Positions 33,605-55,066 of a stretch of 64,000 nt of DNA are shown piece by piece. A model generated the notes under the pieces. It made no database searches, had not been told where the DNA came from, and saw nothing but the letters and a program-made list of their open reading frames with translations. The position numbers and the translations under genes were made by a program. The stretch's first letter is position 1; each line of letters starts with the position of its first letter. This DNA comes from a virus, in IMG/VR virus record IMGVR_UViG_2565956771_000001, positions 24-64,023 of that record; one strand, written 5' to 3'.

Positions 33605-34076
33605 CATGTCTGAAAAAATACTCCCACATTTACTCCCACGGATATTCTAGATCTAGGTAGCTTTGGTATCTCAAGGGCTGTGAGCTAGCGACAGCTTTGG
33701 CATAAGCAGCAACGTGGGCGTTAGTTGAAATCAGGAACTTCGGGTCCTTTTTCGGTGCGCCCAGCATGGGCGCAATCTTGTGGGAGAAGATCCCGCCGTA
33801 ATGCAAAGCCAAGCAGCAGGCGAAAGATGTGATTCATCTCTGTCGTGGAGACGCAAAGCAAGCGGCCGAGATCTATAGCCCAATAGAGGTGGTCGCTGAA
33901 CCTATGACTGCCTGGAAGCCAGGCTACGTGTACGATCCGGGGGCCTTCGACACCAACTAGTGGTCTTGATCCTAGCTCTAGCATGTGATGGGCATACTGA
34001 TAGCCATTTACCATCGGCATGGTGGTCGTTATCCTGAAGACACGAGAACAACCGGTTGTTATTTCAGGGAAAGGAT

Positions 34077-36407
34077 ATGAAGGACGTCATTGGCTTTTTT
34101 GCTTACGCGTCAACGCCTGCCGAGATAGGGCAAACCATTGAGAGTGCTGTTGCTACCAGCTCAAGAACCAATACGAAAACGGTTGTGTCTACCTGGAGGG
34201 CCTTGGACATCGTCGGTCACTTCATCTCTGACGAAGTGCTGGCAAGTATTGATGCAGCCGATTTCCTGGTTGCTGACATCAGTGAGCTAAATTTCAACGT
34301 CACGTATGAAATTGGCTACGCCCTTGGTAAATCAAAGCGCGTTCTGCTTGTCAAAAACAAAAGCCTCCAGTCGCAGGGGTTGAAAATTTCCGATGTCGGT
34401 ATTTTTGACACCCTTGGGTTTCAGGAATACCAGAACTCGCCTGAGCTGAGCGGTTTCTTGAACAACGCGTCAGCCTGGAAATCGATTGACGTGTCTGCTG
34501 CGCTCAATCTCAAGGCACCGGTTTATTTGTTGGATACACCGCACAAAACCGACTGGTCGACCCGCATCATCTCGAGAATCAAAAAGGGCGGCTTCATCTT
34601 CCGTAACTTTGATCCAAACGAAACTCCCAGGCTTTCGGCCTATGACGCGATCAATCAGGTCGCACAATCCTATGGAGTTGTGGTTCCGTTGCTATCTACT
34701 GGGGCGACAGGAGCGGCCATCCACAACATGCGAGCCGCCTTCATTGCTGGTTTGGCCGATGGCATGGGCAAGGCGATGTGCATTCTTCAGTCAGGCGATG
34801 AGCCGGTCCCAGTGGATTATCGAGACTTTGTCCAGGTTACCTACCATCCGAATGATGTTAACCGCGCCATTGAGGTGTTTGCGTCCGATGTGACCCAAGC
34901 GTTTCAGCAGCTTGAGGCTTCTGGCGCGAAACCCGAGCGGTCATTTATCAAAAAACTCAACCTCGGCGCGACATCTGCCGAGAACGAAATGCGGGATCTC
35001 GAACGTTATTATCTGGAGACCGATCAGTTTCTGAAATCGTTGCGTGGCGAGGCGCATTTGGTCGTCGGTCGTAAGGGTTCTGGAAAATCAGCCATCTTTC
35101 TTCAAATCAGGGATGCCGAGCGCGACAAAAACCGTAACAAGAATATCGTTTTGGATTTGAAGCCAGACGGCTACAAACTCATCAAATTCAAAGAACGCAT
35201 CCTTCAGTTTCTTTCCGAAGGCACCTACCAGCACACAATCACGGCGTTTTGGGAGTACGTGCTACTGCTGGAAATTTGCTACAAGATTTTGGAAAAAGAC
35301 AAACAGCGTCACATCCATGATCATAGGCTGTATGAAGGCTATCGCGAGCTCGCCGAGCTGTATCGGGGAGAAGATTACGATTCAGAAGGCGATTTTTCTG
35401 AGCGCATGTCGATGCTCATGGAGAAAATCTACTCCGAATACCAATCCAAGTACGGTTCAACCAAAAGCGTCAATCTGAGCTCATTCGAAGTGACCGAACT
35501 CCTGTACAAGCATGACGTAAAGCAACTCAAACAAAAGCTGGGACGTTACCTTGAGAACAAGCAGGTGCTATGGCTTCTCTTCGACAATATTGATAATGGC
35601 TGGCCAACGTCCGGACTGAAGCATGAAGACCTGCTTATGGTCAGAGCTTTGATCGACGCTACGCGAAAAATTGAACGTCAGTTCAGCAGCGACAACATCA
35701 AGGTGCGCTCGGTAGTGTTCCTACGCAACGACGTCTACGAGCTGCTGGTCAAGGAGACGTCTGACCGCGGCAAGGAAGCCAGTGTGGTGCTGGATTGGAC
35801 GGATTCTGACTTGTTACGCGAGCTCGTTCGTTTGCGAATCGTGTCCAACGGTCTTGAAGAAGACCTGGACTTCAAGTCGGCCTGGCTGCGGCTTTTTGTA
35901 AGCCATTACAAGGGCGAGGAAACGTCTCAGTTTCTGATAGAGCGTTCCTTGATGAGACCACGCTTTCTCTTGAATCTGATCAATCATTGCAAGAGCTTTG
36001 CCATCAACCTCAACCACGAGATTATCGAAGGCAGCGACATTGAGAAAGGCATCGCGGCCTATTCAGCGGATCTGCTGCGCGATATTGGCTACGAGCTTCA
36101 GGACGTGTCCGATGAGACTGAAGGCCTTCTCTACGCTTTCGTCGCATCATCCGCCGACCTTTCTGAGCAGCAGGTGATGGATACTCTCCTTAAGTCTGGG
36201 CTTGATCAGCAGAAGGCGAGTCGCGCGGTAGATCTGCTGCTTTGGTATGGATTCCTGGGCATTCGAATCAACTCGGACGATCCTAAGTTTATTTATGATT
36301 TTAGCTACAACAAAGCGCTCATGGACGGGGTTAAGAAGAACTCGAACCAAGCGGTCAGTCTTGTAATTAACCAGGCGTTTTGGCCAGCATTGATGATCAA
36401 CCAATAA
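34077..36407 (+). CDS. P-loop ATPase (Sll1717/FunZ-like) with two N-terminal NDT/TIR-like domains
   Basis: ADFLVADISELNFNVTYEIGYALG (NDT-like); second copy near HNMRAAFIAGLADGMGK; Walker A VVGRKGSGKS; Walker B LLFDNID; C-terminal wHTH-like LLWYGFLG. Confidence 0.82.
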   Translation: MKDVIGFFAYASTPAEIGQTIESAVATSSRTNTKTVVSTWRALDIVGHFISDEVLASIDAADFLVADISELNFNVTYEIGYALGKSKRVLLVKNKSLQSQGLKISDVGIFDTLGFQEYQNSPELSGFLNNASAWKSIDVSAALNLKAPVYLLDTPHKTDWSTRIISRIKKGGFIFRNFDPNETPRLSAYDAINQVAQSYGVVVPLLSTGATGAAIHNMRAAFIAGLADGMGKAMCILQSGDEPVPVDYRDFVQVTYHPNDVNRAIEVFASDVTQAFQQLEASGAKPERSFIKKLNLGATSAENEMRDLERYYLETDQFLKSLRGEAHLVVGRKGSGKSAIFLQIRDAERDKNRNKNIVLDLKPDGYKLIKFKERILQFLSEGTYQHTITAFWEYVLLLEICYKILEKDKQRHIHDHRLYEGYRELAELYRGEDYDSEGDFSERMSMLMEKIYSEYQSKYGSTKSVNLSSFEVTELLYKHDVKQLKQKLGRYLENKQVLWLLFDNIDNGWPTSGLKHEDLLMVRALIDATRKIERQFSSDNIKVRSVVFLRNDVYELLVKETSDRGKEASVVLDWTDSDLLRELVRLRIVSNGLEEDLDFKSAWLRLFVSHYKGEETSQFLIERSLMRPRFLLNLINHCKSFAINLNHEIIEGSDIEKGIAAYSADLLRDIGYELQDVSDETEGLLYAFVASSADLSEQQVMDTLLKSGLDQQKASRAVDLLLWYGFLGIRINSDDPKFIYDFSYNKALMDGVKKNSNQAVSLVINQAFWPALMINQ

Positions 36408-36663: not shown

Positions 36664-37920
36664 GTGATGAAGTTATGCTTTGTCGTGATGGGGTATGGCA
36701 AGAAAACCGAGTATGAGTCTGGTCGCACGCTCGACCTGAATGCAACGTACGAAACGATTATCGAGCCCGCTGTCACCAGCCGCGGCTTACGCTGCGTTCG
36801 GGCTGACGAGATCATGCAGTCGGGACTTATCGACGTAAAAATGTACGACCTGCTGCTCAGGGCTGATCTGGTCATCGCCGATATTTCCACGGGAAACGTA
36901 AACGCCGTCTACGAACTGGGAGTACGTCACGCGCTGAGACCGAATTCGACCATCGTCATGAGCGAGGACAAGGGCAAGCTGTACTTTGACCTCAATCACA
37001 TCAGCACTTTCCAGTATTCGCATTTTGGTGAGGACATTCTTGCACGTGAGGCGCGGCGCGCCACGGAGGCCCTGGGTAACCTGATTGAGGCCGTGATGGC
37101 CGCCCAGGCTATCGACAGTCCAGTTTATACGTTCCTGCCCAGGTTGCGCTCGCCGAGTATGTCGGATGAAGAGTTTGAAGAGTTGGTCGATGAAGCAGAA
37201 GCCGCTCAACAACGACTTTTTCATCACATGCGCGAAGGTGAAAAGTTGATGCGGCAGAGTCAACATCATGCTGCCAGCGTAGAGTTTGCTGCTGCAAGGG
37301 ATATGAAGCCTGGTGAGCCTGATATTTTGCAAAAGCTTGCACTGAGCACCTATAAGTCAAAGATTCCTAATGAGCTCGCCGCGCTGCGAGCTGCCATGGA
37401 AGTGCTTAGCCCCCTCAATCCTGAAAGCTCGAATGACCCCGAGACTGTTGGCATTGCGGGAGCGATCGTCAAGCGAATCTGGCTGCTTGAGGGTGATAGA
37501 GCTTCACTTGACTCCGCCATTGCTTTTTATCGCCGAGGCTTTGAGGTCAAGCGTGACTATTACAACGGCGAAAACCTTGCGCTGTGCTTCGAGTTTCGAG
37601 CGCAAATACAAACAGAAGACGCGGAGAGAATGTTCGACTTCATGTGCGCGCAGAAAATCCGTGAAGCGATTTTGAGGATTCTGTTGCCTGTGCTGGAGTC
37701 TCCCGATTTCATTGAACGCAGCGACAGACGCTGGGTGTATGCGACTTTGGCCAACTGCTATTTTGCGGTCGGAGACGCCACGCAAGCCGAGACGTTCGAG
37801 AATCATTTTATGGGAGCCTTCATTGCTCAATGGGAGGTTGATACTTATCAGGCGGGCAAAAGTCACGTGTTAGCAACCCGAGAGAAACGGCTCGCAGCGG
37901 TGGCCCCGTCTCAGCACTGA
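36664..37920 (+). CDS. NDT-like domain plus DUF4071/TRAF-binding-type TPR protein
   Basis: LCFVVMGYG...ADLVIADISTGNVNAVYELGVRHALR; helical repeats DPETVGIAGAIVKR, YYNGENLA. Confidence 0.8.
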   Translation: MMKLCFVVMGYGKKTEYESGRTLDLNATYETIIEPAVTSRGLRCVRADEIMQSGLIDVKMYDLLLRADLVIADISTGNVNAVYELGVRHALRPNSTIVMSEDKGKLYFDLNHISTFQYSHFGEDILAREARRATEALGNLIEAVMAAQAIDSPVYTFLPRLRSPSMSDEEFEELVDEAEAAQQRLFHHMREGEKLMRQSQHHAASVEFAAARDMKPGEPDILQKLALSTYKSKIPNELAALRAAMEVLSPLNPESSNDPETVGIAGAIVKRIWLLEGDRASLDSAIAFYRRGFEVKRDYYNGENLALCFEFRAQIQTEDAERMFDFMCAQKIREAILRILLPVLESPDFIERSDRRWVYATLANCYFAVGDATQAETFENHFMGAFIAQWEVDTYQAGKSHVLATREKRLAAVAPSQH

Positions 37921-37975
37921 CCGTTTGAGGTTATCGACAATGCTCAACCAACGACTTCAAGAAAGGAACAGCGAA

Positions 37976-38455
37976 ATGGGGTTGCCCAGAACATTCGTCG
38001 GCTTCAGCAGCACAGACCGACACATGTATGAACTGATGGGGGCGTGGAAGAAAAACACTCGGATCGATTTTGATTTCGCCGACTGCCAGTTGAACATGGC
38101 GTTGAACTCGGAAGACGAGGATTACATCAAGCGCAAATGCCGGGAAAGGATTGATATGGCCGGCACCTTCGCACTGCTGATTGGCAGGGACACGCGTTCG
38201 AAACACAAATACGTGCGTTGGGAGATACAGGTAGCGATAGAGAAGGGGTGCAAGCTCATCGGCATCAACCTGGACGGAGCCCGCCAGGTGAATGCTGATC
38301 TTTGCCCTCCCATCCTGCAGGACGTTGGGGCAGTGTTCGTCCCGTATTCCCCTGCCATTATTGCTCATGCCCTGGCGAACCCCACGGCAAGTGAGCGTGG
38401 CAACTATTTCTATCCGCCAGCCGTGTATCAAAAACTCGGCTATGAGGTTCCTTGA
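37976..38455 (+). CDS. TIR-domain protein (ThsB/DUF1863-like)
   Basis: RTFVGFSSTD...EDEDYIKRKCRERI...LLIGRDT...YVRWEIQVA (catalytic Glu). Confidence 0.88.
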   Translation: MGLPRTFVGFSSTDRHMYELMGAWKKNTRIDFDFADCQLNMALNSEDEDYIKRKCRERIDMAGTFALLIGRDTRSKHKYVRWEIQVAIEKGCKLIGINLDGARQVNADLCPPILQDVGAVFVPYSPAIIAHALANPTASERGNYFYPPAVYQKLGYEVP

Positions 38456-39318
38456 TGCAGATTTCTGATTTCCCTGGTCTCTATCAGGCCGCCGATGAGC
38501 TGTCGGGTTCCGCTCAGAAGCATTTTCTTGCCGCGCTGCTCACTAACCTGGCGCTGTTGGTGGTGGCCGCAGTCGTCTCGGTTATCAATTATCCTCACTG
38601 GGGTGCAGCGGCCCTGCAGGCGGCTCTTTTAGCCGGCGCATTAGCCAGCTCTGTGTATTTGGCGACACAGCGGCCTGAGCGGCTTTGGTATTCGGGGCGT
38701 GCCGTCGCCGAATCAATCAAAACCATGGTGTGGCGCTACGTGTCCCGCGCAGAGCCTTTTCATGAAAGCGACGAGGCGGCCAAGAAGCATTTGCTGGCAA
38801 AGCTTACGCAAGTGGTTGAGCAAAACCCAGGCGTGTCGAACAAGCTGCTCACGCATCTGCCGGCCCAGCAAATTACGTACAAGATGAAGCTGATGAGGGC
38901 CGGTGATTTCGAAACCCGGCGCGATACGTACATCGAATCCCGGATCAACGACCAACTGGGATGGTATTCACGTAAAGCTAACTTCAACGCCCAGGCCGCC
39001 AAGTATTTCTTCATTACATTGATCGCCGTTAACGCCATCGCTTTTGGATGTGCGCTGATCAAGATCGCCAACGTGGAATACCAATACTTTCCGACTGACG
39101 TGCTGATCGCTGTTGCAGCAAGTATTCTGACGTGGATGCAGGCAAAACGCTTCACTGAGCTATCGGCGTCTTACGCACTGACTGCGCATGAGATTACGCT
39201 TATACGTGAACAGGCCGATGAGCTGAAAAAAGATGAGCATTTGTCGACATTTGTAGGTGACGCTGAGAACGCATTTTCTCGTGAGCACACTCAGTGGGAG
39301 GCAAGGAAGGACAACTGA
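38455..39318 (+). CDS. SLATT/DUF4231 membrane effector (two 2-TM modules)
   Basis: Four hydrophobic segments; WYSGRAVAESIK; RINDQLGWY; ENAFSREHTQW; start overlaps the TIR stop. Confidence 0.87.
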   Translation: MQISDFPGLYQAADELSGSAQKHFLAALLTNLALLVVAAVVSVINYPHWGAAALQAALLAGALASSVYLATQRPERLWYSGRAVAESIKTMVWRYVSRAEPFHESDEAAKKHLLAKLTQVVEQNPGVSNKLLTHLPAQQITYKMKLMRAGDFETRRDTYIESRINDQLGWYSRKANFNAQAAKYFFITLIAVNAIAFGCALIKIANVEYQYFPTDVLIAVAASILTWMQAKRFTELSASYALTAHEITLIREQADELKKDEHLSTFVGDAENAFSREHTQWEARKDN

Positions 39319-39395
39319 CAGCGCCTCGCGTGCGAACGACTACTGGCAGGAGTAGGGCGCTAGTTTCAGAAGCTAAACACCTTCCTGCCGGCAGC

Positions 39396-39866
39396 TTATT
39401 TAAGCTCGTCGGAGAGCTTCGACCAGGGTACGGTTTTGATCTTGTGTTCCGATACCCATTTAGGCTCAGCTGCGCCGAACTGCTTACCGGAATGCACAGC
39501 TACAACCTTCTTGCCAAGCTCTAGGCTCTTTTCTACCTCCCATTTCACCCACTTGCTCTGGGCAGTGTCCTTGGAAATGAAGACCACAGTGATAGATGAG
39601 CGGTTGATGCGCTCGGCGATCTTGCGCTTGATGTACTCCGCCTGCTCACTGTCGTAGGGTTCGCGGACTGAATGATCATTGAACTCGATGTCATTGTTAT
39701 CGTTTTTTGCCTGTCCCCTGAGCAGATTGACCTCAGCCATGTCCTCAGTGGCAAAACTGATGAACACGTTGCGCTTGCCCTCATTTAGAGCAGCCTTGGC
39801 TTTTTGCTCCAGTGACCTGACATCACCGAGTCGGCTCCATCCACCTGTGCTGCTACCGCCCATCAT
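39396..39866 (-). CDS. TIR-domain protein (ThsB-like) with a Gly-rich N-terminal tail
   Basis: (M)MGGSSTGGWS...; NVFISFATED...AEYIKRKIAERINRSSITVVFIS...WVKWEVEKS; GAGGG RBS inside the end of the queC-like gene. Confidence 0.88.
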   Translation of the reverse strand: MMGGSSTGGWSRLGDVRSLEQKAKAALNEGKRNVFISFATEDMAEVNLLRGQAKNDNNDIEFNDHSVREPYDSEQAEYIKRKIAERINRSSITVVFISKDTAQSKWVKWEVEKSLELGKKVVAVHSGKQFGAAEPKWVSEHKIKTVPWSKLSDELK

Positions 39867-40455
39867 TGGCACCCTCAAATTTGAATTCGTTGCAGGCGAT
39901 ACAGTTGCCGCACGGCTGTTCTTCACCCAGGTGGCACGAGTAGGTCTGAGAGATGCCTTTCTCGGCTGCCAGCGTCACGACGTCAGGTTTGGTGAACGAT
40001 GAGAGCGGTGCAAGCACCTTGATATTCCGGCCCATGCATAGAGTTATCATGCGCTCAGCCTCCTCGAGGAATCCGGAGGTCTGATCAGGAAAAAGGCTGG
40101 TGCTTTCGTGAAGCAATCCGATGGAGATCGCATCGGCGTTTTTCTGATGGGCGTAAGCGGCGGCGGTCAACAGAAAAAGCATGTTCCGGCCGGGAGTGAA
40201 GGCGTCGTCAATGATGTGCAAGGTCGGGTCGGTGAGTCCCGAGCGAATCAACCTGCCAAATCCCGACAGACCGGCAATTTCGGGCTCAGGAAGTCCAAGC
40301 TTCTGCATGGCCAGCTTGCAGGCTGCGAGCTCTCGGTCGCGGGCGCGTTGACCATAATCTACAAAGAGTGGAAATATCTGCAGGCCTTGCTCCTGTGCCA
40401 ACTTGGCGACGAGCGTAGAGTCTAGGCCTCCGGAAACCAGTGTCACGATACTCAT
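39853..40455 (-). CDS. QueC-like PP-loop ATPase (7-cyano-7-deazaguanine synthase family; Cap9/QatC-like)
   Basis: SGGLDS, FVDYGQR, PGRNMLFL, zinc site SCHLGEEQPCGNCIAC. Confidence 0.92.
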   Translation of the reverse strand: MSIVTLVSGGLDSTLVAKLAQEQGLQIFPLFVDYGQRARDRELAACKLAMQKLGLPEPEIAGLSGFGRLIRSGLTDPTLHIIDDAFTPGRNMLFLLTAAAYAHQKNADAISIGLLHESTSLFPDQTSGFLEEAERMITLCMGRNIKVLAPLSSFTKPDVVTLAAEKGISQTYSCHLGEEQPCGNCIACNEFKFEGANDGR

Positions 40456-41150
40456 ACTAAAACAGCCTCCTGCTTGCGATTTGCAACGCGCATAACGATC
40501 CATATGGCCCAATCCAAAAGACCAACCGGGCAATCCATTTCCCGGGCATGGTCACGAAGCCTGTCTTCATGCCTGCCATACTGATTCAATCCGGATATGG
40601 ATACCTGAGTGCCTGAATATATCCCCTGAGCAGACATGTAATTGAGCACGTGCCGATCAAGGATTGCCAAGTCATAAGTAACCCCGCAATTGCGCAAAAA
40701 CATACTGGCTTGCTTGGGCCCCATACCGGATGCATGGGCCACTAGCCACGCGCGTACATCACTGACGTCACCACTGATCAGCGCCTTGAGTGAGCCGCCA
40801 ATGCTTGCTACGGCCGCCCACGTGGACGCTAAGTGACCGGCTTTTGCCCTGGGAAACCTGTAAGTGCGCATTTTGCCGTCGACAACGAGAGGGGTTCTGA
40901 GCACTTCAAACAATTTCTCGGCAAGGTGCTCGCTGTGTTGTTTGTTGTGATAAAGATAGCCACGTTCATCGATGGCATCGGCGGCTGCCATAGCGAGCGG
41001 GTAGGGGACCTGGCTACTGAGAATGCAGCAAGAAAGCTCCCACCATAGATGACGCTCGTCAGACACTGCGCCGGCTTCGATGCGTGTGCGAATATCTGGA
41101 CAGACCGCAGCGACAGCTCTGCAGAGCGCTTCAGCGCTATAAGTGGTCAT
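40452..41150 (-). CDS. OGG-like N-glycosylase/AP lyase (HhH; Cap11-like)
   Basis: ELSCCILSSQ, YRFPRAKA, GMGPKQASMFLRN, AILDRHVL, DWAIW. Confidence 0.85.
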   Translation of the reverse strand: MTTYSAEALCRAVAAVCPDIRTRIEAGAVSDERHLWWELSCCILSSQVPYPLAMAAADAIDERGYLYHNKQHSEHLAEKLFEVLRTPLVVDGKMRTYRFPRAKAGHLASTWAAVASIGGSLKALISGDVSDVRAWLVAHASGMGPKQASMFLRNCGVTYDLAILDRHVLNYMSAQGIYSGTQVSISGLNQYGRHEDRLRDHAREMDCPVGLLDWAIWIVMRVANRKQEAVLV

Positions 41151-42529
41151 AGAAAAATTCCTGGGAATAGCGATCGAAGCTCGGCGCTTTTCATGCCGGT
41201 AACTCCCATGGCGAACGGTTCTTCGCGGCCTTTCGAATACATGTCACGCATGATTCGGCCAAACTCCGCATAATACTCTAGATTGTGGAACGCAACCTTG
41301 CCTGCGTAGCCTATGTTGTTGTTTGCCATCACCCTATCCATAAATTCACTTCGGATCCTTTTCGTTTTGAAAAAGTCGAAGTGTTGGAAGTGGTGAAGCC
41401 GCTCAAGCTCAGGATCTACCGCAAACCGACACCACTCAAGACCGTCGAACGTGTCCGCGCCAGCGGCCGCCAGTAGTGCAATGCTCCACGGGTTTCCAGT
41501 GCCCAGTAGATGAATGGGTTGATAATAGGGCAGCTTGTCCAGTTCATCCCTGATATGTCTGACAGTCAATGCACGCTGCGCAAGGCCCGCACCCAGTTCC
41601 CTTTCCGGAATGGCGATGATAGGCGGTTGCAGGTGCTCGGATATCGCCCTGACGATCCGAGGAAGTCTTTCGAGCCCCTTAGGGGTCTGCTTGACGTGAA
41701 TGATGGGTAGCACCGGAGCAGAGGTGTGCTTGGCGTCGCGCTCCACTGCTTTTATGACCTGCCTGACCGCCACTTCGAATTTGTCACTGGGGGTCATGTT
41801 GTCAAAACAGAACGCCCAATCGTGTGGCGTATCGGTTAGCGCGCGCTTCAGGTTCGATGGCTTCCACTGTTTGTCATTCAGGCGGTAAGCCTCATAATTG
41901 CCCGAGTCGATGAGAACAAAACCGCCTAGGTCTCGATAGGTCGTTATTTCAGCAATCATCTTGTGTCGCGATTCAGAATTAACCAGGTCATAGGCAGAAA
42001 CAAGAATCGAGCGCGTCGGATACACCGTTAATGCTTCCAACGCTTCTACGGGATCGAACTGTGTCTCGTGTGACGAAACAGACATGAAGACATTAGGAAG
42101 GGCAAGCGCACCGTCAGCTATCGTGGCTAACCGGACGGGCTTACCCTGAGGAGGTACAACGAGCCCGATTTTCTTCTGCAGCAACTGAAAGCATGAGTGA
42201 TCTGCTTCGCCCTGCCATGACCGGAAATCAACACTGCTGAAGTGACCATATGGGTACGGCGGATCACTGTCATCCAAAATGAGAGGGACGACCTTCTTTT
42301 GATATTTTTCTGCCAAGCTCAACTCGCCAGTGATGGTGTGCTTGTGAGCAAATGAGGAATATAGAGCAACGACGCATTTCGCTTCTTTGAGATTTTCTGT
42401 AATCGCGACACTGAAGTCGCCAACTATCAAATCGTCTAGCCACACGCTCCAGGACGCGGAGAGGAGATCGCGAACCTTCAGCGCTGTCTTGCTATTTTCT
42501 TTGGCATATATGATATAGACGTCCGCCAT
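41147..42529 (-). CDS. TIR domain fused to a tRNA-guanine transglycosylase (TGT)-like barrel (Cap10-like)
   Basis: N-terminal DVYIIYA...VWLD...VVALYS...GEL; TGT motifs LIDSGNYE, FCFD, PIIH, IHLLGTG, ADTFDG. Confidence 0.82.
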   Translation of the reverse strand: MADVYIIYAKENSKTALKVRDLLSASWSVWLDDLIVGDFSVAITENLKEAKCVVALYSSFAHKHTITGELSLAEKYQKKVVPLILDDSDPPYPYGHFSSVDFRSWQGEADHSCFQLLQKKIGLVVPPQGKPVRLATIADGALALPNVFMSVSSHETQFDPVEALEALTVYPTRSILVSAYDLVNSESRHKMIAEITTYRDLGGFVLIDSGNYEAYRLNDKQWKPSNLKRALTDTPHDWAFCFDNMTPSDKFEVAVRQVIKAVERDAKHTSAPVLPIIHVKQTPKGLERLPRIVRAISEHLQPPIIAIPERELGAGLAQRALTVRHIRDELDKLPYYQPIHLLGTGNPWSIALLAAAGADTFDGLEWCRFAVDPELERLHHFQHFDFFKTKRIRSEFMDRVMANNNIGYAGKVAFHNLEYYAEFGRIMRDMYSKGREEPFAMGVTGMKSAELRSLFPGIFL

Positions 42530-42602
42530 GGATCGATCTGGCCTCAGCTGGTTACATTCCGTTGCATGACCCTGCGGGCGATGCCGATTATTGTTTTATC
42601 TT

Positions 42603-43757
42603 TCAGTGAGTGGCAGCGGCTTCGCCAGCAGCCCAGACTGCGAGGTACATTGCTGTCGTGAAGTCATCCGTTGTCTCTGTTGCAACGGTTAATACACTCG
42701 CGGCAGTAGTGCGCTCGTGGAGTGTGATGATCGGAATTGATCGGGCTCGGTCTTCTGCAATTCGTGCCAGGGACTCCACCGACAACTCATCATTTATTAC
42801 CAAGGTCGCATCCGTATTCCAGCCAGCGTTTGCCACTTCAATCTGTGGACATGTCACATCAACACCCAGTTCGCGCAATGCAAACCGGGCTTCTTCCATC
42901 GTGTATCGCTGTCCTAGTGAATCAACACCACCTTCAAGACGAACCCTGCCACCTCTCCAAGATGAGATAGGCTGACGTTGCTTGAGGATGGATTCATCAA
43001 ACTCGAACGCACGGGTATCGCAATAGACAGATACCGACCGTGACGCCAGATCTGCAGCTTGGTGAGGCGGCAGTTCGCCTTGCGCCCAATGAACCGCAAA
43101 TACGGCAGTAAATATGTCACCTGTTCCGATTTTAAAAACACTGCTGGAACGATAAGCCGGTATGTGTGAAATCTTGCCTACACCCTCGTAAACTGAGGCG
43201 CCACGTGCACCTTGTTTGATCACGACAACCTGTGCGCGTTGTTTTTTCAGCAGGTGTTGCGCCGCTAAGTGCAACTCATCGATTCCAGTTATCTGGCGCA
43301 CTTCCAGTTCATTCATTACTAGGGCCAATTCTCTGGCCGTCGACCCATTGGCTCCAAACGATGGCGGGTTATGCCAGGTTTGCGGGTCGTATACGGCCCG
43401 ATTCGCCGTGACCACCGCATCTCCCTCAAGAAAGCCGAAGCGCAAAACGGCGTTCCCAGTCACCGATATCGAGTTTTCGCGGTTGATGGACGCGCGGGGT
43501 GGCTCAATATGGGGCGAAGAAAGGGGGTGGAAATACGCAAAGACTATTGGCGATGGCCTGGTAGCGGCATGCGTGATGATTCCCTGCGACTCCAGCGAAA
43601 CCAATGCGGAGCGATCAGCGGGGGAGGCATAAGTGGAAAACTCGACACCCGAAGCCAGTGCGTTGGCGGCCAAGGCAGCGCGACCTCCAGAGCCCAGCGT
43701 AGAGTCCCAGAACGGTACATCACATAACTCGCGATATAGACCACCAACGATGTGCAT
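42603..43757 (-). CDS. PfkB/ribokinase-family kinase with a C-terminal degenerate NDT-like domain
   Basis: MHIVGG...LGSGGRAA; VVIKQGARG; FKIGTGDIFTA; tail LGQRYTMEEARFALRELGVDVTCP. Confidence 0.82.
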   Translation of the reverse strand: MHIVGGLYRELCDVPFWDSTLGSGGRAALAANALASGVEFSTYASPADRSALVSLESQGIITHAATRPSPIVFAYFHPLSSPHIEPPRASINRENSISVTGNAVLRFGFLEGDAVVTANRAVYDPQTWHNPPSFGANGSTARELALVMNELEVRQITGIDELHLAAQHLLKKQRAQVVVIKQGARGASVYEGVGKISHIPAYRSSSVFKIGTGDIFTAVFAVHWAQGELPPHQAADLASRSVSVYCDTRAFEFDESILKQRQPISSWRGGRVRLEGGVDSLGQRYTMEEARFALRELGVDVTCPQIEVANAGWNTDATLVINDELSVESLARIAEDRARSIPIITLHERTTAASVLTVATETTDDFTTAMYLAVWAAGEAAATH

Positions 43758-44155
43758 TCCGTGCCCTCGGTCAGTCTTACGTCGGATCGGCAGCCAATGC
43801 ATCGCTTCAGAGACTGAAGTTCAGATGATTTGCTCTTTAACGCATATCGCATCATGCCCTACAAAAAAAGCCTGAAAACCAGCAGCCACATAGTCGCTGC
43901 GCGGCGAACGACAACGATCGTCGATTGACACTTCGGTCGATCAAGCTCACGTCCTCGAGGCCCGATGATGCTGCACGAGTATAGGTGTCATGATGATATT
44001 ATCGTCAAGCAGGGCGCCCCAAAAAACTTTGAGACTAAGCCAATCAACCATCGAACTCTATGAGCTCCTGGAGAGCGGCAACGGAACGGTTCAGTAATGA
44101 GCGCTGCCCCGAGTTGATTGTGCATGTCGAGCACCCAATGGGATGCTACGGAGAT

Positions 44156-45886
44156 TTAAGCTTTTTCGAGCTTAAGAAAGGGATTATCGGTAGGTACGGC
44201 CGCAGCTTTGAACAATAGTGCTGGTTCTTCTAGCAAATAGCCTTTGAGTTTTGCCTTCTTACGGGGACCTTCGACCTGACAAGCCCAGATATTTAGACCG
44301 TCGTCACGCTTCCTGTGGACCTTCAATTTTTCGAATTGCTTCTGCACCCAACGCCATTCTTCAGTCTCTTGATTGGCACCCTGAGAGATACCAGGGAACT
44401 CCTGCGCATAGCGTTGGAAGAGACCAGGCGTGACCAGAAATACGCTGCCACTCACCGTGTGGATTTTGGCCTTGCTGTCATTGATGACCAGTTTGTGGCT
44501 CAGGATGCTTTCCTTGACCCAATTCAAGAATGCCTGGCCAGGGTTATTCGAAGGAGGATTTGAGATTTCGAGAGCGTTTGCTGACGGTGCATCACGTGCC
44601 TCGGGTTCTGCCATTTCGAACATATCCAGCAACGCTCCTAAGTAGTCGGCATCTTCCGTGGCTACGGGATCTGGCTGTGATGGGCTTTGATCTGATCCTC
44701 TACTGACAACCTTGGGTGCTAGTGGCGATGCCGGAGCGTCAGTTGAGTGGTCATCGACTGCGAAGCTTACCGTTCCGCTGAAAGCTTCAGGTCGGTCTTC
44801 GTTCGCCCAAATCAACGCCGGTTGAAGGCGCAGAAAGGTAAAGCTCTGCTGCCAGTTTCCCTGCGTGACAAGCGCAGTCCAGATGGCTTTGCCTTCCGGC
44901 GTGGACTCAACCAATCCATGCGATTGCAGTTCGTCGAACACAGCAATGTTGGACGACGGAATGCCTTCTATCGCTTGTGAAAGCAAATAAGCTCGGAGTT
45001 TGTCCGTGACTGCCTTACTAACCAACCACAGGGAGTCCTGGGTCAGCCATCCCGCGGCCCCTGGCTGGTTGAGTTTCAGCTCGTGCTGAACGAGATGACG
45101 CAGTCCGCTGATCAAGTGATGTTGCAGCGTATGAATCGGCGCTTGCAACGCCTTGCTTGGGTTGCCACCGATGTTCTGTGCGGTGGAGACCCGGTCGGCT
45201 TGAATCACCAACTCGCCCAGCACGCCGGCGCGTTCATACTGGCCGGCTAGGACATACAGCAGACTCGCCCACAGCGGCGGAAAGCCACTCAGCCAATCGA
45301 GGATCGGTCGGTTGAGAATCTGGGTGTAGAGCAAGCCTGCGGCGGCGCCGTGCAGGTGATAATCGCGACCTTTGAGGTAGCGAAAGCGGTAGGGCTGATC
45401 CAGGGGACCCTGCCAAGGATGCCAAACACGGCCATCCTGGCGTTCGACTAGCAGGTCCACGGCGATCTTGCCGATGTCATGCAGAAGGGCACCATAAGCA
45501 ATACCCGCCGACCAGGCATCGGTCTGGGCGGCTTGGTCTTCGGGCGCAGCGCCGGTTGGCAGCAGATACGACTGACGCAGTTTCAAACTGCAAGCGACCA
45601 GTTCCAGTCCATGGTCGAGCATGCCGCCAAGGTAAGCATGGTGGTGCGTCTCGCTGGCAGGCAGTTGCTGGACCTGTTCGGCGTAGCGATGGATCGGATT
45701 TATATAGAGCTGGGTGAACTGCGCGTGGGAGAGGGCGGTGTACTGCCAGATGCGGTCGAGCAACTGGCGGCGGTGTTCCGCGGCTAACAAACTGTGAGCC
45801 GACTCGATGGGCAGGTAACCTTCGGCGACGTTGACGGTCGGTGGCGGAGGGGGCTTCTGCCTTTTGCGGCGAAACAGGCTGAGCAT
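44156..45886 (-). CDS. traI: MobH-family relaxase (TraI_2)
   Basis: LPASETHHHAYLGGMLDHGLE and LLHDIGK (HD domain); VWHPWQGPL. Confidence 0.93.
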   Translation of the reverse strand: MLSLFRRKRQKPPPPPTVNVAEGYLPIESAHSLLAAEHRRQLLDRIWQYTALSHAQFTQLYINPIHRYAEQVQQLPASETHHHAYLGGMLDHGLELVACSLKLRQSYLLPTGAAPEDQAAQTDAWSAGIAYGALLHDIGKIAVDLLVERQDGRVWHPWQGPLDQPYRFRYLKGRDYHLHGAAAGLLYTQILNRPILDWLSGFPPLWASLLYVLAGQYERAGVLGELVIQADRVSTAQNIGGNPSKALQAPIHTLQHHLISGLRHLVQHELKLNQPGAAGWLTQDSLWLVSKAVTDKLRAYLLSQAIEGIPSSNIAVFDELQSHGLVESTPEGKAIWTALVTQGNWQQSFTFLRLQPALIWANEDRPEAFSGTVSFAVDDHSTDAPASPLAPKVVSRGSDQSPSQPDPVATEDADYLGALLDMFEMAEPEARDAPSANALEISNPPSNNPGQAFLNWVKESILSHKLVINDSKAKIHTVSGSVFLVTPGLFQRYAQEFPGISQGANQETEEWRWVQKQFEKLKVHRKRDDGLNIWACQVEGPRKKAKLKGYLLEEPALLFKAAAVPTDNPFLKLEKA

Positions 45887-46108
45887 CGTGATCTCCGGGA
45901 AGTGGCTGGGTCATTGGCCTTTTAGCCTTTTCGGATAGCGCTCTTACCCTTGAGTGCCCATTCCCTTCCAACCCTTACCCGTCCTTTTGGCTCGTGTCCC
46001 TTTGTGAGGCAATCGGAATATGGATACTGCTAGGCATCATTTTTTTGGGGGCTAGTACGGAAAAGAAAAGAGTCGGTACACTGCGGTGCCTATTTTTTGG
46101 GTCTTGCC

Positions 46109-46303
46109 ATGAACCTTACTGACGCCACGCTCGTGCTGCTGCTCGCGGCACGTATCCATGGGACCGACGAAGCCGTCAGGGCCTCGGCGAAGAGCGTGGT
46201 CAAGAAGTTACCGCGCAGTAAACGCGATCTGATCTACAAGGTGATCGACAGCCGGAGTCCGCTCGAGCTGGTGGATTTTCTGGCGCAGAACCTGGATACA
46301 TAA
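46109..46303 (+). CDS. Small conserved Pseudomonas hypothetical protein
   Basis: MNLTDATLVLLLAARIHGTDEAVRASAKSVVKKLPRSKRDLI. Confidence 0.65.
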   Translation: MNLTDATLVLLLAARIHGTDEAVRASAKSVVKKLPRSKRDLIYKVIDSRSPLELVDFLAQNLDT

Positions 46304-46433
46304 CGGCATGCTGCGGGTGTGCGCCCCTCTCTTTTTCTTTGCGTGAGGGGCCCGCCGTCTGTTTTCTGGAAACAGAAAAAAGGGCTCAACTCGCGTTGGG
46401 CCCTGTGAAGCGTTTGCAGCGGTGAGGTAACGA

Positions 46434-47393
46434 TCAAGCTCCATCGTTCATGCATAGTGAGTCATCCAAGACCGCTTGCTTCAGTTGCTGCTCCAGGTTG
46501 AGTACATACTCCGAGGCGCTTCGGGCCTGGCCACTGGCGCGGAAGATCGCGCGTTTGTCAGCCTTGAGCAGGCCGAGCCAGGAGTCAATGTAGCCCTCGT
46601 GCCTAAGTTCTCCCTGTATACCGGTGTAGGCACATAAAAACGCAGCGCCCATCTCGGCGATCAACTCCTCAAACGCGTAGCCTGGCGAGCCGAACGGACA
46701 GGCTGACGTCATGCCTTCGCGCTGCAACCGAGAGTGATGCCCGGTCCAGTGCGTCAGCTCATGAAGTGCCGTGGCGTAGTACCCGCCTTCATCGTGAAAT
46801 TGTGCTTTTGTCGGCAGTTGGATGAGATCCCTGATCGGGTGGTAAAAGGCTTCGTCGGCAGGCCGATGAACGATGCGTGCACCTGAACTTAATAGCAGAT
46901 TTTCCGCGGCGCTGTTGGGCTGGAAGGGATCACTCTGTTCCGTCTCGAGCAGGGTTTCATTGAGCATTTCGAGCCCCTCCGTTTGCTCGATGTTGAACAG
47001 AAAATGTGTCCTGAGAATGCCGAAGTGAGCGACCTTGGGTTGACCGTTTTCATCGAGTACGGGTTGGCCTGACTCGGTCTGTTCCTCGCGCTCCATCGGC
47101 TTGTAGAGCACCGCCAGAGTGCTGTGCTCACCCTTACGAATGTGCCCACCGGTCTTTTTGGCTTGGTTGAAGGTCAGCCAACGATCTTGAGTGAACCCCT
47201 GCAACCTGGCCTCGGCCCAGAGCAGCGGTAAATTGATGCCCGAATACGGACGTCGTGTGATGGCGTTGACGGGGTAGGGTTGATGACCGATGTAAGCGGA
47301 GCCACTTGAGGACCAGGGTTTGATCCAGGGAGCAACGCCTTGGTCTAACGCGGTAACGATCTTGTCAGTTACGTCTTGGTAGATATCGCGCAT
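46434..47393 (-). CDS. ardC: ArdC antirestriction protein (DUF1738 plus zincin-like domain)
   Basis: DIYQDVTDKI...APWIKPW; YSGINL; WLTFNQA; ALHELTHWTGH; YAFEELIAE. Confidence 0.92.
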   Translation of the reverse strand: MRDIYQDVTDKIVTALDQGVAPWIKPWSSSGSAYIGHQPYPVNAITRRPYSGINLPLLWAEARLQGFTQDRWLTFNQAKKTGGHIRKGEHSTLAVLYKPMEREEQTESGQPVLDENGQPKVAHFGILRTHFLFNIEQTEGLEMLNETLLETEQSDPFQPNSAAENLLLSSGARIVHRPADEAFYHPIRDLIQLPTKAQFHDEGGYYATALHELTHWTGHHSRLQREGMTSACPFGSPGYAFEELIAEMGAAFLCAYTGIQGELRHEGYIDSWLGLLKADKRAIFRASGQARSASEYVLNLEQQLKQAVLDDSLCMNDGA

Positions 47394-47524
47394 GGCAATT
47401 TCCTCGAGAGAAAACGGAGGAACGCCTTGCCCGTCGGGGGAGGGTTCCCCGGTTGGGTGATGGGTTGGATTGATGCAGGTCTTGCATGCCGCCCGAATGT
47501 GGAGGTGGGCGCCGCCCATTGCGC

Positions 47525-47854
47525 TTAGCGCTGGTGTTCTCCTGCAAGCGCTATCAGCAAGGCGGCAGGCTGACCCGGTTCTTGGAGTAGGCTCAGACTC
47601 AATTGCAGCAACGGGTCGTGGTGTAAGTGATCGGTTGGTTCAATGTGGATTACCTCGAACAGCACGTAGGGCTTGTGTGGATAGGCCAGGTGGGCTTCGA
47701 AGGCTGCGCGCAATACGTGGCTCAACCGATCGACCTGCAGCTTCTCAGCGTGATCGGATTGCTCGAGCAGTACTGCGCGTTGCCACGCGCCAGGGGTGAA
47801 CACGATGGGCAACCGAAGGGTGTTCAGTGTTTGCGGTGTAAGTGAGTCGGGCAT
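47525..47854 (-). CDS. ICE hypothetical protein
   Basis: 109 aa, GGAG RBS, preceded by the same repeat element as ardC. Confidence 0.65.
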   Translation of the reverse strand: MPDSLTPQTLNTLRLPIVFTPGAWQRAVLLEQSDHAEKLQVDRLSHVLRAAFEAHLAYPHKPYVLFEVIHIEPTDHLHHDPLLQLSLSLLQEPGQPAALLIALAGEHQR

Positions 47855-48310
47855 GGTATGTCTCCGTTGAATACGCGAAGAAACCTGCCCTGTGCGGGGA
47901 AAGATTTCCCCGCAGTGGGTTGAAGAAAATCAAGAGGGCTTATCTCACGAGCAGCGCTCGAAAGGCGCTCAGGAGAGCAGTAGGCGTTCATCATCGTAGC
48001 AACGGTCACCGTGCGAGCCACCGAACGCTAATCGCACTTGGGGAGAACCATCATCGAAGTGACGGAGCCTTGAAGGTTCTGGCTACCTGGGAAAGTGCTG
48101 TCGATAACAGCGATCCGTACCTTGTATTTAGCTGGACGATTTATCTGGGTCAATCACTGTAGATAGGCTTTTTCACGGGGCTTGTCTTCTGTCTTCCAGT
48201 GAAGATTTTTTCGGCTGGGCAAACTGATAAACGGTCAGGCACGGACAGTTTTCAGTAGTAGGCTGTTACTCCTGTCTCAACCATGAAAACGCTCAGAAGA
48301 GTGCGAGAGC

Positions 48311-48709
48311 ATGCCGACTCAGCAACCTGTTCAGAATTCACGTGGCCACAGCTGGGCGTACGCATGTGGCACGTCGGTAAAGCGTGGTTATCGCAAATTG
48401 CAAGCGTTTGAGTCCCGCCTGGCTGAGCGTGCGGTGACGGCAGGTATGCCCGCAGGTAAATTACTTGTTCGCGGGAGCTTTCTGATTGCCAAACTGGCAT
48501 TGATCGGAGGATTGCTCTTTGTCAGTGTTTGGCTGGTTACTTTTTTTGTGATGATGCTGGCTGTCATCACTTTGCTATGGTTCAGGGCTTTTGTTGGTTC
48601 CGATCATCAAGAGGAAAGTCCAGGGCCAGACTACCTAGGTGCTGATCTCTACATCGGTGACTTCGATGACAATGGGCATTATATAGGCGACAGCAAGTCA
48701 TCTAATTGA
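48311..48709 (+). CDS. DUF3742-family ICE membrane protein
   Basis: Family-like N-terminus, two TM segments, acidic tail; convergent with traG. Confidence 0.65.
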   Translation: MPTQQPVQNSRGHSWAYACGTSVKRGYRKLQAFESRLAERAVTAGMPAGKLLVRGSFLIAKLALIGGLLFVSVWLVTFFVMMLAVITLLWFRAFVGSDHQEESPGPDYLGADLYIGDFDDNGHYIGDSKSSN

Positions 48710-50239: not shown

Positions 50240-50249
50240 GGTGGTGACC

Positions 50250-50558
50250 TCACAGTCGGGTGAGTTCGACGAAGGTAAAGAGCACGAGCCCTAATGCCCC
50301 GATGCGTTTCACGCGCAGTCGATCCTGTGGTCGATGTCGGTAGCGCCGAAGCAGATCCACCCACAGCGCGAAGAGGGCGCCGTAGAGCAGGGCACGCCAC
50401 CACTGCAGATAGGGCCTTACGGATTCGAATGCCTGCTGCCAGACCTCGAAGCTGCCCAGCGCAGCGTGGCCGATCCATGCGACCAGTGCGGCGGTCAGGA
50501 TCATCACTGCGGCAATCCCCAGACTCGAAAGCAAAGTGAATAGCGGTGAGCGTTTCAT
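50250..50558 (-). CDS. ICE membrane protein
   Basis: 102 aa, hydrophobic, between the PFL_4711-like gene and traG. Confidence 0.7.
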   Translation of the reverse strand: MKRSPLFTLLSSLGIAAVMILTAALVAWIGHAALGSFEVWQQAFESVRPYLQWWRALLYGALFALWVDLLRRYRHRPQDRLRVKRIGALGLVLFTFVELTRL

Positions 50559-50561
50559 GGC

Positions 50562-52897: not shown

Positions 52898-53002
52898 TAT
52901 CCAGGCTCTCGGTGTATGGCCTGGGCAGGTTCGGTTAGGGACTGAAGACTGTCAGTGGGAATTATGAAGGCGGATCTATCGGATTTGTGAGGCGTGGGTC
53001 TA

Positions 53003-53257
53003 TTATTTGACGTGAAGGGAGCTGCGCAGGGTATCGGCGTCTACAAGTAGTTGATCTGTGGTGATTTCGAAAATATTGGCGAGTTTGCACAGGACCAACA
53101 GCGAGGGGTTGCCCGCGCATCGTTCGATTTGGCTGACGTAGGTGCGATCCACCTCGGCCATGAGCGCCAGCTGCTCCTGGGTAAGGTTCTTTACGCGCCG
53201 CATCCAGCGGATGTTCTCCGCCAGTTGCAGACGAAGTTGTTCGTAGTCTTGAGTCAT
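53003..53257 (-). CDS. XRE-family HTH regulator
   Basis: NLTQEQLALMAEVDRTYVSQIERCAGNPSL. Confidence 0.9.
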   Translation of the reverse strand: MTQDYEQLRLQLAENIRWMRRVKNLTQEQLALMAEVDRTYVSQIERCAGNPSLLVLCKLANIFEITTDQLLVDADTLRSSLHVK

Positions 53258-55029: not shown

Positions 55030-55066
55030 CTGCCGGATTGGCCAAGCTGGGAGCGCCACACCTCCC

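What the first reader, a model, noticed from the sequence alone, without database searches (positions are those of the whole stretch)
41147..42529. TIR-TGT fusion protein
Seen: about 120 N-terminal residues with a TIR_2-like pattern (DVYIIYA..VWLD..VVALYS..GEL) joined to a barrel keeping TGT aspartate motifs (DSGNYE, ADTFDG). Established: canonical TGTs and DpdA exchange guanine for deazaguanine in tRNA or DNA, and Cap10 is a TGT-fold partner in type IV CBASS. Inference: the TGT barrel may read the deazaguanylated N-terminus of the partner TIR and bring two TIR domains together into an active NADase assembly.
Basis: partly seen in the sequence, partly recalled or inferred. Interest (0 to 1): 0.72.

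Follow-up and report, generated by a model that had tools for sequence, protein, structure and literature searches.

The report
TIR-fused Cap10 in Thoeris operon
This gene really does fuse a TIR immune domain to a Cap10-type (tRNA-transglycosylase-like) barrel, and it sits in an anti-phage operon that probably tags a partner TIR enzyme with a 7-deazaguanine base; the operon type was noted in a 2025 preprint, but the fusion has not been studied.

Summary
The ORF at 41147-42529 (-) encodes 460 aa. Residues 1-122 are a TIR fold (Pfam TIR_2 E 2.9e-11; SARM1 TIR Z 16.8). Residues 133-460 are a TGT barrel whose best solved match is Cap10 of type IV CBASS (PDB 9ntn, Z 24.6).

Three Cap10 pocket features are kept and invariant in the family: D73/S74, H226 and D248, here D208/S209, H340 and D362. 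The TGT zinc site is absent. The TIR catalytic Glu (E69) is invariant.

The gene is translationally coupled to an Ogg-like (Cap11), a QueC-like (Cap9) and a ThsB TIR gene beginning MGGSSTGG. In 66 distinct fused loci, QueC and ThsB are present in 66/66, Ogg in 65/66 and a PfkB kinase fusion in 58/66. SLATT or TPR-S effectors lie nearby. The ThsB begins MGG in 81 of 84 loci.

It is therefore the Cap10 component of a deazaguanylation-controlled Thoeris system. Yirmiya et al. 2025 mention this operon class, untested.

The idea that the two TIRs must pair is untested and weakened: sister operons carry Cap10 unfused or fused to a Schlafen/AlbA_2 domain.

This scan has found the same fusion before on other DNA (e1-3153920).

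The parts
41147..42529 (-). TIR-Cap10 (TIR-TGT) fusion gene, 460 aa
   Evidence: ORF and translation; Pfam TIR_2 plus TGT; PADLOC TGT; AF2 model pLDDT 89.5.
42155..42529 (-). N-terminal TIR domain (residues 1-125)
   Evidence: TIR_2 E 2.9e-11. SARM1 TIR Z 16.8, rmsd 1.9 over model residues 1-122. Nearest Atlas clusters are all TIR_2/ThsB.
42323..42325 (-). Codon of Glu69, the candidate catalytic glutamate of the fused TIR
   Evidence: Invariant in 30 homologues and kept in the divergent fused clade. Coordinates checked.
41150..42133 (-). Cap10-like TGT barrel (residues 133-460)
   Evidence: 9ntn_B Cap10 Z 24.6 over residues 133-460; Foldseek 9ntn E 1.4e-11; phmmer and profile hits to 9ntn.
41903..41908 (-). 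Asp208-Ser209 (IDSGNYEA), equivalent to Cap10 D73-S74, which read the NDG base
   Evidence: Alignment to 9ntn_A positions 69-81; invariant; role taken from Wassarman et al..
41510..41512 (-). His340, equivalent to Cap10 H226 (hydrogen-bond partner of the nucleophile)
   Evidence: PIHLLG aligned to PIHVFG of 9ntn_A; invariant.
41444..41446 (-). Asp362, equivalent to the Cap10 D248 / TGT nucleophile
   Evidence: GADTFDGLEWCRFA aligned to GADVFDGLTWLRFA of 9ntn_A; invariant.
40452..41150 (-). Ogg-HhH glycosylase-like gene (Cap11 equivalent); its start overlaps the TIR-Cap10 stop by 4 nt
   Evidence: Pfam Ogg-HhH E 2.4e-24; present in 65 of 66 fused loci.
39853..40455 (-). QueC-like ligase (Cap9 equivalent); start at MSIVTLVSGG
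   Evidence: Pfam QueC E 1.7e-39; PDB Cap9 9nto E 8e-14; present in 66 of 66 loci.
39396..39863 (-). ThsB-type TIR protein beginning MGGSSTGG, the predicted substrate for N-terminal deazaguanylation
   Evidence: Pfam ThsB_TIR E 3e-25. MGG(G/S) start in 81 of 84 loci. W108/E109 invariant. The start region holds ATGATG with GAGG upstream.
42603..43757 (-). PfkB (ribokinase-fold) kinase with a C-terminal alpha/beta domain; first gene of the operon
   Evidence: Pfam PfkB. Ribokinase-family fold Z 26.5 over residues 1-265. GG, NxxE and GTGD motifs invariant. Present in 58 of 66 fused loci and in none of 12 unfused loci.
38452..39318 (+). SLATT_3+SLATT_1 membrane effector (ThsH-like), convergent with the operon
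   Evidence: Pfam. A SLATT or TPR-S gene lies within 7 kb in 59 of 66 fused loci.
36664..37920 (+). TIR/NDT-like plus TPR-S effector (ThsI-like)
   Evidence: Pfam TPR-S E 1.8e-20; PADLOC TIR effector model.
37925..38455 (+). Second ThsB TIR without a Gly tail, paired with the two effectors
   Evidence: Pfam ThsB_TIR; PADLOC ThsB E 2.2e-40.

Best explanation
The gene encodes the Cap10 component of a Thoeris (TIR-signalling) anti-phage system that has the Cap9/Cap10/Cap11 ancillary module known from type IV CBASS.

Inferred sequence of events:
1. The QueC-like Cap9 ligates 7-carboxy-7-deazaguanine to Gly2 of the small ThsB protein (tail MGGSSTGG), producing an N-terminal 7-amido-7-deazaguanine (NDG).
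2. The TGT barrel of the fusion protein takes this NDG tail into its nucleobase pocket (D208/S209, with the H340/D362 pair behind it). This tethers ThsB in a primed but controlled state, as Cap10 does with CdnD.
3. On infection ThsB is released or transferred and makes a cADPR-type signal that opens the SLATT and TPR-S effectors nearby.

The fused N-terminal TIR keeps its catalytic Glu. It is most likely an accessory module that contacts the tethered ThsB TIR, either holding or completing a TIR assembly. It is not a core requirement of the system.

Shown here: the two folds, the conserved residues, the operon conservation and the Gly tail. Inferred: the modification, the binding and the role of the TIR.
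For: - Domain split and folds.
- Cap10 is the best solved match (Z 24.6, above all tRNA TGTs and DpdA).
- Cap10 functional residues are conserved and invariant.
- No zinc-site cysteines.
- Four genes are translationally coupled.
- Across 66 distinct fused loci, QueC and ThsB are present in 66/66 and Ogg in 65/66.
- ThsB begins MGG(G/S) in 81 of 84 loci, matching the M(G/S)G(G/S)GG acceptor motif of type IV CBASS CD-NTases.
- Effectors are SLATT or TPR-S, the sensors of cADPR-type Thoeris types VII and VIII.
- Yirmiya et al. list Thoeris operons with cap9/10/11 and an AF3 ThsB-Cap10 model of ipTM 0.79.
- The TIR Glu is invariant in this family and present in eight other, independently fused TIR_2 domains.
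Against: - Nothing is biochemical: no mass evidence for NDG on ThsB, no binding data, no NADase data.
- Two of the four nucleobase-reading residues of Cap10 (D122, K154) could not be mapped with certainty. D243 and H278 are invariant candidates only.
- The role of the fused TIR is open. The catalytic Glu is strictly kept, which a pure scaffold would not need.
- Sister operons lack the TIR altogether or carry AlbA_2 instead.
- The conserved PfkB fusion has no counterpart in type IV CBASS and is not explained by this model.
Confidence: 0.7

Rival explanations
1. The barrel is a working transglycosylase rather than only a reader. Asp362 transfers the N9 of the ThsB-linked NDG onto a ribose-bearing target. 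The variable N-terminal domain (TIR, AlbA_2 or none) selects or supplies that target, such as NAD+-derived ribose or nucleic acid. Ogg and PfkB-NDT process or reverse the product. This extends the best explanation rather than excluding it.
For: - The H340/D362 pair is invariant across fused and unfused forms.
- In type IV CBASS the D248 mutant loses defence, and the authors propose transfer to an unknown target.
- Every extra domain in the operon acts on N-glycosidic bonds or ribose: TIR, TGT, Ogg, the NDT-like tail and the ribokinase fold.
- A different QueC cluster also travels with PfkB-PF05014 fusions.
- The N-terminal domain is swapped between TIR types and AlbA_2 in the same operon, as input or target modules often are.
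Against: No target is known even in the studied CBASS system. No chemistry was tested here. The PfkB gene is absent from 8 fused and all 12 unfused loci, so it cannot be essential to the core reaction.
Confidence: 0.15
2. The fused TIR is itself the killing effector. It would be an NAD+-depleting enzyme switched on when the Cap10 dimer rearranges or oligomerises, and the ThsB tail would merely regulate it.
For: - The catalytic Glu is invariant.
- The best structural match is the NADase SARM1 TIR (Z 16.8).
- The nearest feature clusters include CAP12/Pycsar effector TIRs.
Against: - Dedicated SLATT or TPR-S effectors accompany the operon in 59 of 66 loci.
- Both of the remaining loci that I inspected have divergent versions of these effectors.
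- The same operon exists with no TIR or with AlbA_2 on Cap10.
Confidence: 0.1
3. The protein is a Dpd-like or tRNA-type transglycosylase that inserts a 7-deazaguanine into DNA or tRNA independently of the TIR genes.
For: TGT fold with both Asp motifs retained. A QueC homologue lies next door.
Against: - Cap10 scores above the tRNA TGTs, and DpdA is much lower (Z 16.8 against 24.6).
- There are no zinc-site cysteines.
- NCBIfam TGT models score far below their cut-offs (27.7 bits against 350).
- The ORFs of 150 aa or more in the stretch I listed (28000-56000) hold no dpdB-K, queD, queE or folE gene.
- The gene is linked to a Gly-tailed ThsB in 66 of 66 loci.
Confidence: 0.03

Closest known systems
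Cap10 of type IV CBASS (Rhizobiales; PDB 9ntn; Wassarman et al. 2025, bioRxiv 10.1101/2025.04.06.647259)
   Same: - TGT-like barrel without a zinc site.
- Conserved DSG(G/N)YEA base-reading motif and the H...D catalytic pair.
- Encoded with a QueC-like Cap9 and an Ogg-like Cap11.
- The partner enzyme begins with a Gly-rich M(G/S)G(G/S)GG tail.
   Different: - The partner is a ThsB TIR protein, not a CD-NTase.
- Cap10 here carries an N-terminal TIR domain of about 125 residues.
- Sequence identity is only about 20-22 %.
- A PfkB kinase fusion heads the operon.
- The effectors are SLATT and TPR-S proteins.
Thoeris operons with cap9, cap10 and cap11 (Yirmiya et al. 2025, bioRxiv 10.64898/2025.12.03.692087, Fig. 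6G and S10B)
   Same: Same operon class: ThsB plus effector plus the QueC/TGT/Ogg triad. AF3 predicts ThsB-Cap10 and ThsB-Cap9 contacts. One example comes from a Pseudomonadales bacterium.
   Different: The preprint gives the class two sentences and no experiment. Its text and held supplements do not mention a TIR fused to Cap10, the PfkB gene or the Gly tail. I cannot see its figures, so the fusion may be drawn there.
Types VII and VIII Thoeris (ThsB with SLATT ThsH or TPR ThsI; canonical cADPR signal; Yirmiya et al. 2025)
   Same: The same effector families (SLATT_3/SLATT_1 and TPR-S) flank the operon. A plain ThsI-ThsB-ThsH cassette lies convergent to it in the window.
   Different: Those systems have no ancillary QueC/TGT/Ogg genes, and their ThsB has no Gly tail.
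Bacterial tRNA-guanine transglycosylase and DpdA
   Same: TIM-barrel fold and the two catalytic or recognition aspartates.
   Different: No zinc site, no nucleic-acid-modification gene context, and a weaker structural match than Cap10 gives.

Membership tests
Cap10 (TGT-like ancillary protein of type IV CBASS) | TGT-like (alpha/beta)8 barrel closest to solved Cap10 | tested here: met
   9ntn_B Z 24.6, rmsd 3.9, 288 aligned, top of 48,161 chains; Foldseek rank 1; PADLOC TGT E 1.6e-22.
Cap10 (TGT-like ancillary protein of type IV CBASS) | Nucleobase-reading D73/S74 and catalytic pair H226/D248 | tested here: met
   D208/S209, H340 and D362 align to these positions of 9ntn_A and are invariant.
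Cap10 (TGT-like ancillary protein of type IV CBASS) | Nucleobase-reading D122 and K154 | tested here: inconclusive
   The sequence alignments did not cover this stretch. D243 and H278 are invariant candidates, but no superposition was possible.
Cap10 (TGT-like ancillary protein of type IV CBASS) | Loss of the TGT zinc site | tested here: met
   The only cysteines are C52, C113, C241 and C367. There is no CxCxxC after the nucleophile.
Cap10 (TGT-like ancillary protein of type IV CBASS) | Operon with QueC-like Cap9 and a partner starting M(G/S)G(G/S)GG | tested here: met
   QueC in 66/66 loci and Ogg in 65/66. The partner starts MGG(G/S) in 81 of 84 loci.
Type IV CBASS (the whole system) | A CD-NTase as the signalling enzyme | tested here: not met
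   The Gly-tailed partner is a ThsB_TIR protein (Pfam E 3e-25) in all loci annotated. Annotation used only profiles of the window's own proteins, without a CD-NTase profile. I saw no unassigned ORF between the core genes, except a transposase insertion in L039.
Thoeris (TIR signal producer plus effector) | ThsB-type TIR with catalytic Glu next to an effector with a signal-sensing domain | tested here: met
   ThsB_TIR with invariant W108/E109. SLATT or TPR-S effectors in 59/66 loci, and divergent ones in the two further loci inspected.
TIR domain NADase/cyclase | TIR fold and conserved catalytic glutamate | tested here: met
   TIR_2 above the gathering score; SARM1 TIR Z 16.8; E69 invariant.
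TIR domain NADase/cyclase | NAD+ cleavage or cyclisation activity | not testable with these tools
   Needs an enzyme assay.
Canonical TGT / DpdA | Zinc site and nucleic-acid substrate context (dpd or queuosine genes) | tested here: not met
   No zinc motif. NCBIfam TGT models score far below cut-off. No dpd, queD or queE genes among the ORFs of 150 aa or more listed for 28000-56000.

The most novel reading that the evidence does not exclude
The operon builds a nucleotide on a protein. After QueC puts NDG on Gly2 of ThsB, the free N9 is glycosylated with an NAD+-derived ribose. This is done either through the barrel's Asp362 or through base exchange by the fused TIR. The PfkB-NDT fusion and the Ogg-like glycosylase act as further writer and eraser. 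A protein-linked deazaguanine nucleotide would then be the real switch of the immune system. The variable N-terminal domain of Cap10 (several TIR types, AlbA_2 or none) would be the module that chooses the ribose donor or target.
Probability: 0.1. Interest if true: 0.85.

Novelty: new variant of a known kind. Interest (0 to 1): 0.5.

Why it matters
Deazaguanylation, a nucleobase attached to a protein N-terminus, was described only in 2025 and only for a cGAS-like cyclase. Its final target and the way it activates the enzyme are unknown.

This family shows the same Cap9/10/11 machinery wired to TIR signalling. A second, catalytically intact TIR, or an AlbA_2 domain, is welded to the reader protein, and a ribokinase-fold fusion is added. 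These extra domains are natural clues to what Cap10 does after it binds the tag. The Pseudomonas-type operon is compact enough to test in laboratory strains.

If the fused TIR proves to control or complete the ThsB assembly, it would be a new way of gating TIR enzymes.

Tried and rejected
No complex was modelled.
- phmmer of residues 1-135 against PDB sequences found nothing. The TIR fold was established by Pfam and by structure instead.
- A profile-profile comparison of the fused TIR (A6) with the Gly-tailed ThsB (A4) was weak (hhalign probability 1 %, E 0.054). It did align E69 with ThsB E109. The two TIRs are therefore not close paralogues.
- I searched the Yirmiya supplements for TGT, PF01702, PF06508, PfkB and SP163 and found no occurrences.
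- I looked for Burroughs et al. 2015 (NAR), which I recall discussing QueC/TGT/OGG conflict systems. It is not held, so it is not used.
- I tested whether this QueC belongs to 'cluster 4' of the QueC network paper, which has PfkB-PF05014 neighbours. The cysteine motif differs: here CH-x6-C-x2-C-x2-C, there CH(x)5CxxCxGCxK. It is probably another family.
- tblastn against 50,697 phage records gave no match. Plasmids gave 13 full-length matches, mostly conjugative Rhizobium and Agrobacterium plasmids.
- The promoter and terminator scan of 39000-44300 found no more sites than shuffled sequence.
- I considered whether the three 'unfused' TGTs inside fused clades (L068, L072, L085) are real losses. 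L072 is cut by its contig end, L085 lies about 300 bases from its contig end, and L068 is split into adjacent TIR and TGT ORFs.
Full report
**The gene and its two domains.** The ORF at 41147-42529 on the minus strand is open and encodes 460 residues.
- Pfam places a TIR_2 domain on residues 4-108 (E 2.9e-11, above the curated cut-off). It gives only a borderline TGT match.
- The PADLOC model built for the CBASS 'TGT' protein matches residues 161-380 at E 1.6e-22.
- An AlphaFold2 model built on 30 homologues is confident: pLDDT 89.5 and pTM 0.88, so the two domains are predicted to pack in a fixed way.
- An exhaustive structural comparison splits the model cleanly. Residues 133-460 match Cap10 of type IV CBASS best (9ntn_B, Z 24.6, 288 residues), ahead of archaeosine TGT (22.1), bacterial TGT (20.8), QTRT2 (20.2) and DpdA (16.8).
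- Residues 1-122 match TIR domains: SARM1 Z 16.8 at 1.9 A, then IL-1RAcPb, MyD88, TIR-STING and ThsB.
- Foldseek also ranks Cap10 first.

**Active-site residues.** Sequence alignments to the Cap10 chain put IDSGNYEA on IDSGGYEA, so D208/S209 equal Cap10 D73/S74. They put PIHLLG on PIHVFG (H340 equals H226) and GADTFDGLEWCRFA on GADVFDGLTWLRFA (D362 equals D248).
- In the solved complex, D73/S74 read the 7-amido-7-deazaguanine and D248/H226 are the catalytic pair. D73 and D248 mutants lose defence.
- All four residues are invariant in 30 family members and kept in distant fused and unfused relatives.
- The protein has four cysteines, none forming the TGT zinc motif. Cap10 has also lost that site.
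- Two other Cap10 base-reading residues (D122, K154) could not be mapped. D243 and H278 are invariant candidates only.
- The TIR glutamate E69 is invariant in the family and in the most divergent fused clade.

**Operon.** On the same strand, with overlapping stop and start codons, follow three genes:
- an Ogg-HhH glycosylase-like gene (40452-41150);
- a QueC-like gene (39853-40455), which matches both QueC and solved Cap9;
- a ThsB-type TIR gene (39396-39863).

The ThsB reading frame holds ATGATG. From the second ATG the protein begins MGGSSTGG.

Upstream lies a PfkB kinase fusion (42603-43757). Convergent on the plus strand is a plain Thoeris cassette of TPR-S effector, ThsB and SLATT effector (36664-39318). 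This corresponds to the ThsI and ThsH effectors of the cADPR-using types VIII and VII.

**Relatives.** The fusion is a large, conserved family. A word-indexed search found 876 hits. Most of the 120 best listed are 450-490 residues long and carry TIR_2, usually with TGT as well; a few shorter, unfused or fragmentary entries are among them. Named sources include Pseudomonas, Stutzerimonas, Klebsiella, Aeromonas, Vibrio, Marinobacter, Paraburkholderia, Rhizobium and Agrobacterium.

In one genome per species, 170 genomes encode a relative. I annotated the 80 loci kept, plus loci from assemblies, using profiles of the window's own proteins. Among 66 distinct fused loci:

| Gene | Loci with it |
|---|---|
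| QueC-like | 66 |
| ThsB | 66 |
| Ogg-like | 65 |
| PfkB fusion | 58 |
| SLATT or TPR-S effector within 7 kb | 59 |

- Two of the seven remaining loci were inspected. They carry a divergent SLATT or a TPR-S-protease.
- The ThsB gene after QueC begins MGG(G/S) in 81 of 84 cases. The exceptions are a frameshifted gene, a likely non-ATG start and one MGNKSN. This is the acceptor motif described for type IV CBASS cyclases.
- The family also occurs on conjugative Rhizobium and Agrobacterium plasmids but not in the phage collection.

**What varies.** A maximum-likelihood tree of the barrel shows a main proteobacterial fused clade and a divergent fused clade. The latter spans Bacillota, Thermodesulfobacteriota, KSB1 and an archaeal MAG.
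- A single well-supported clade (100/100) of 12 truly unfused proteins has the operon SLATT-(ThsB)-TGT-Ogg-QueC-ThsB(Gly). Seven of these 12 loci carry a second small ThsB gene.
- Three 'unfused' rows inside fused clades are artefacts: L072 is cut by its contig end, L085 lies near one, and L068 is split into adjacent TIR and TGT ORFs.
- An exhaustive search with the barrel alone found 796 cluster representatives at E 0.001 or better and 189 at 1e-30.
- Of the best 150, 60 carry this TIR type. Eight more carry other TIR_2 domains, all with the Glu. Two carry a Schlafen/AlbA_2 domain. The rest are unfused or fragments.
- The other-TIR and AlbA_2 fusions sit in the same Ogg-QueC-ThsB(MGG)-SLATT operon.

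The N-terminal domain of Cap10 is thus a swappable accessory, although when it is a TIR it always looks catalytic.

**Interpretation.** The best reading is that this is the Cap10 of a deazaguanylation-controlled Thoeris system. QueC tags Gly2 of ThsB, the barrel binds the tag, and ThsB's signal goes to SLATT and TPR-S effectors.

This operon class is mentioned, without experiments, by Yirmiya et al. 2025, who report an AF3 ThsB-Cap10 model. Neither the fused TIR nor the PfkB gene appears in their text or held supplements. I cannot see their figures.

The second half, that two TIRs are brought together into an active NADase, remains untested. It cannot be a general requirement, given the unfused and AlbA_2 variants.

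Rivals are set out in the dedicated fields: a true transfer reaction with the N-terminal domain choosing the target; the fused TIR as effector; and a Dpd-like nucleic-acid role. The last is nearly excluded.

**PfkB fusion.** Its first 265 residues have a ribokinase-family fold (Z 26.5), with the GG, NxxE and GTGD motifs invariant. Residues 270-384 form a small alpha/beta domain that some sources name nucleoside 2-deoxyribosyltransferase. It accompanies only the proteobacterial fused clade. Its role is unknown. Together with TIR, TGT and Ogg, it makes the operon unusually rich in enzymes of ribose and N-glycosidic bonds. That is the basis of the low-probability 'nucleotide built on a protein' reading.

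**Earlier notes of this scan.** The same fusion and operon were already reported on other DNA (e1-3153920, e1-3153919), and the Gly tail on this window (e1-5343572). My own tests agree with them. The points I add here are the quantified operon census, the tree, and the other-TIR and AlbA_2 variants.

**Verdict.** It is a new variant of a kind known since 2025, of moderate interest, with a clear set of bench tests.

Noticed in passing
window 42603-43757 (-): A PfkB (ribokinase-fold) kinase with invariant GG, NxxE and GTGD motifs plus a C-terminal alpha/beta domain of about 115 aa heads the operon. It is present in 58 of 66 fused loci, in none of the unfused ones, and is not part of type IV CBASS. 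A different QueC cluster in PMC13082051 also travels with PfkB-PF05014 fusions.
   Followed up: partly
L090:232-1785 (also protein P0392): Schlafen/AlbA_2 domain fused to the Cap10-like barrel in place of the TIR, in the same Ogg-QueC-ThsB(MGG)-SLATT operon. Eight other representatives carry unrelated TIR_2 domains at that position.
   Followed up: partly
window 36664-39318 (+): A plain Thoeris cassette of TPR-S effector, ThsB and SLATT effector (ThsI/ThsH-like, types VIII/VII) lies convergent to the Cap operon. The stop codons of SLATT and the Gly-tailed ThsB are 77 bp apart. The same arrangement occurs in several Pseudomonas loci (L007, L009, L010, L013, L014).
   Followed up: partly
window 34056-36407 (+): A 783-aa protein with a weak nucleoside-deoxyribosyltransferase-like N-terminus and a P-loop ATPase region. 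It recurs next to the system in L007 and L012 only.
   Followed up: no
ThsB N-termini, window 39396-39863 and loci L001-L086: After the Gly tail, ThsB proteins of fused operons carry W-x-x-L-G-D (at least [LMI]-G-[DN]). Those of the unfused clade carry R-G-L-T-P-D-E-L. The tail-proximal motif thus co-varies with the form of Cap10.
   Followed up: no
window 25987-29889 and 44156-57820: The record is classed as a virus record of 82.7 kb. However, the defence island lies between phage tail genes and an ICE module (TraI_2 relaxase, ArdC, TraG-like ATPase). The cargo may therefore belong to the ICE rather than to the prophage.
   Followed up: no
L048:10498-13125: In Ruegeria the operon is followed by an alpha/beta-hydrolase and a TPR-S-trypsin-like protease instead of SLATT or ThsI. 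This is a possible further effector type for this Thoeris class.
   Followed up: no
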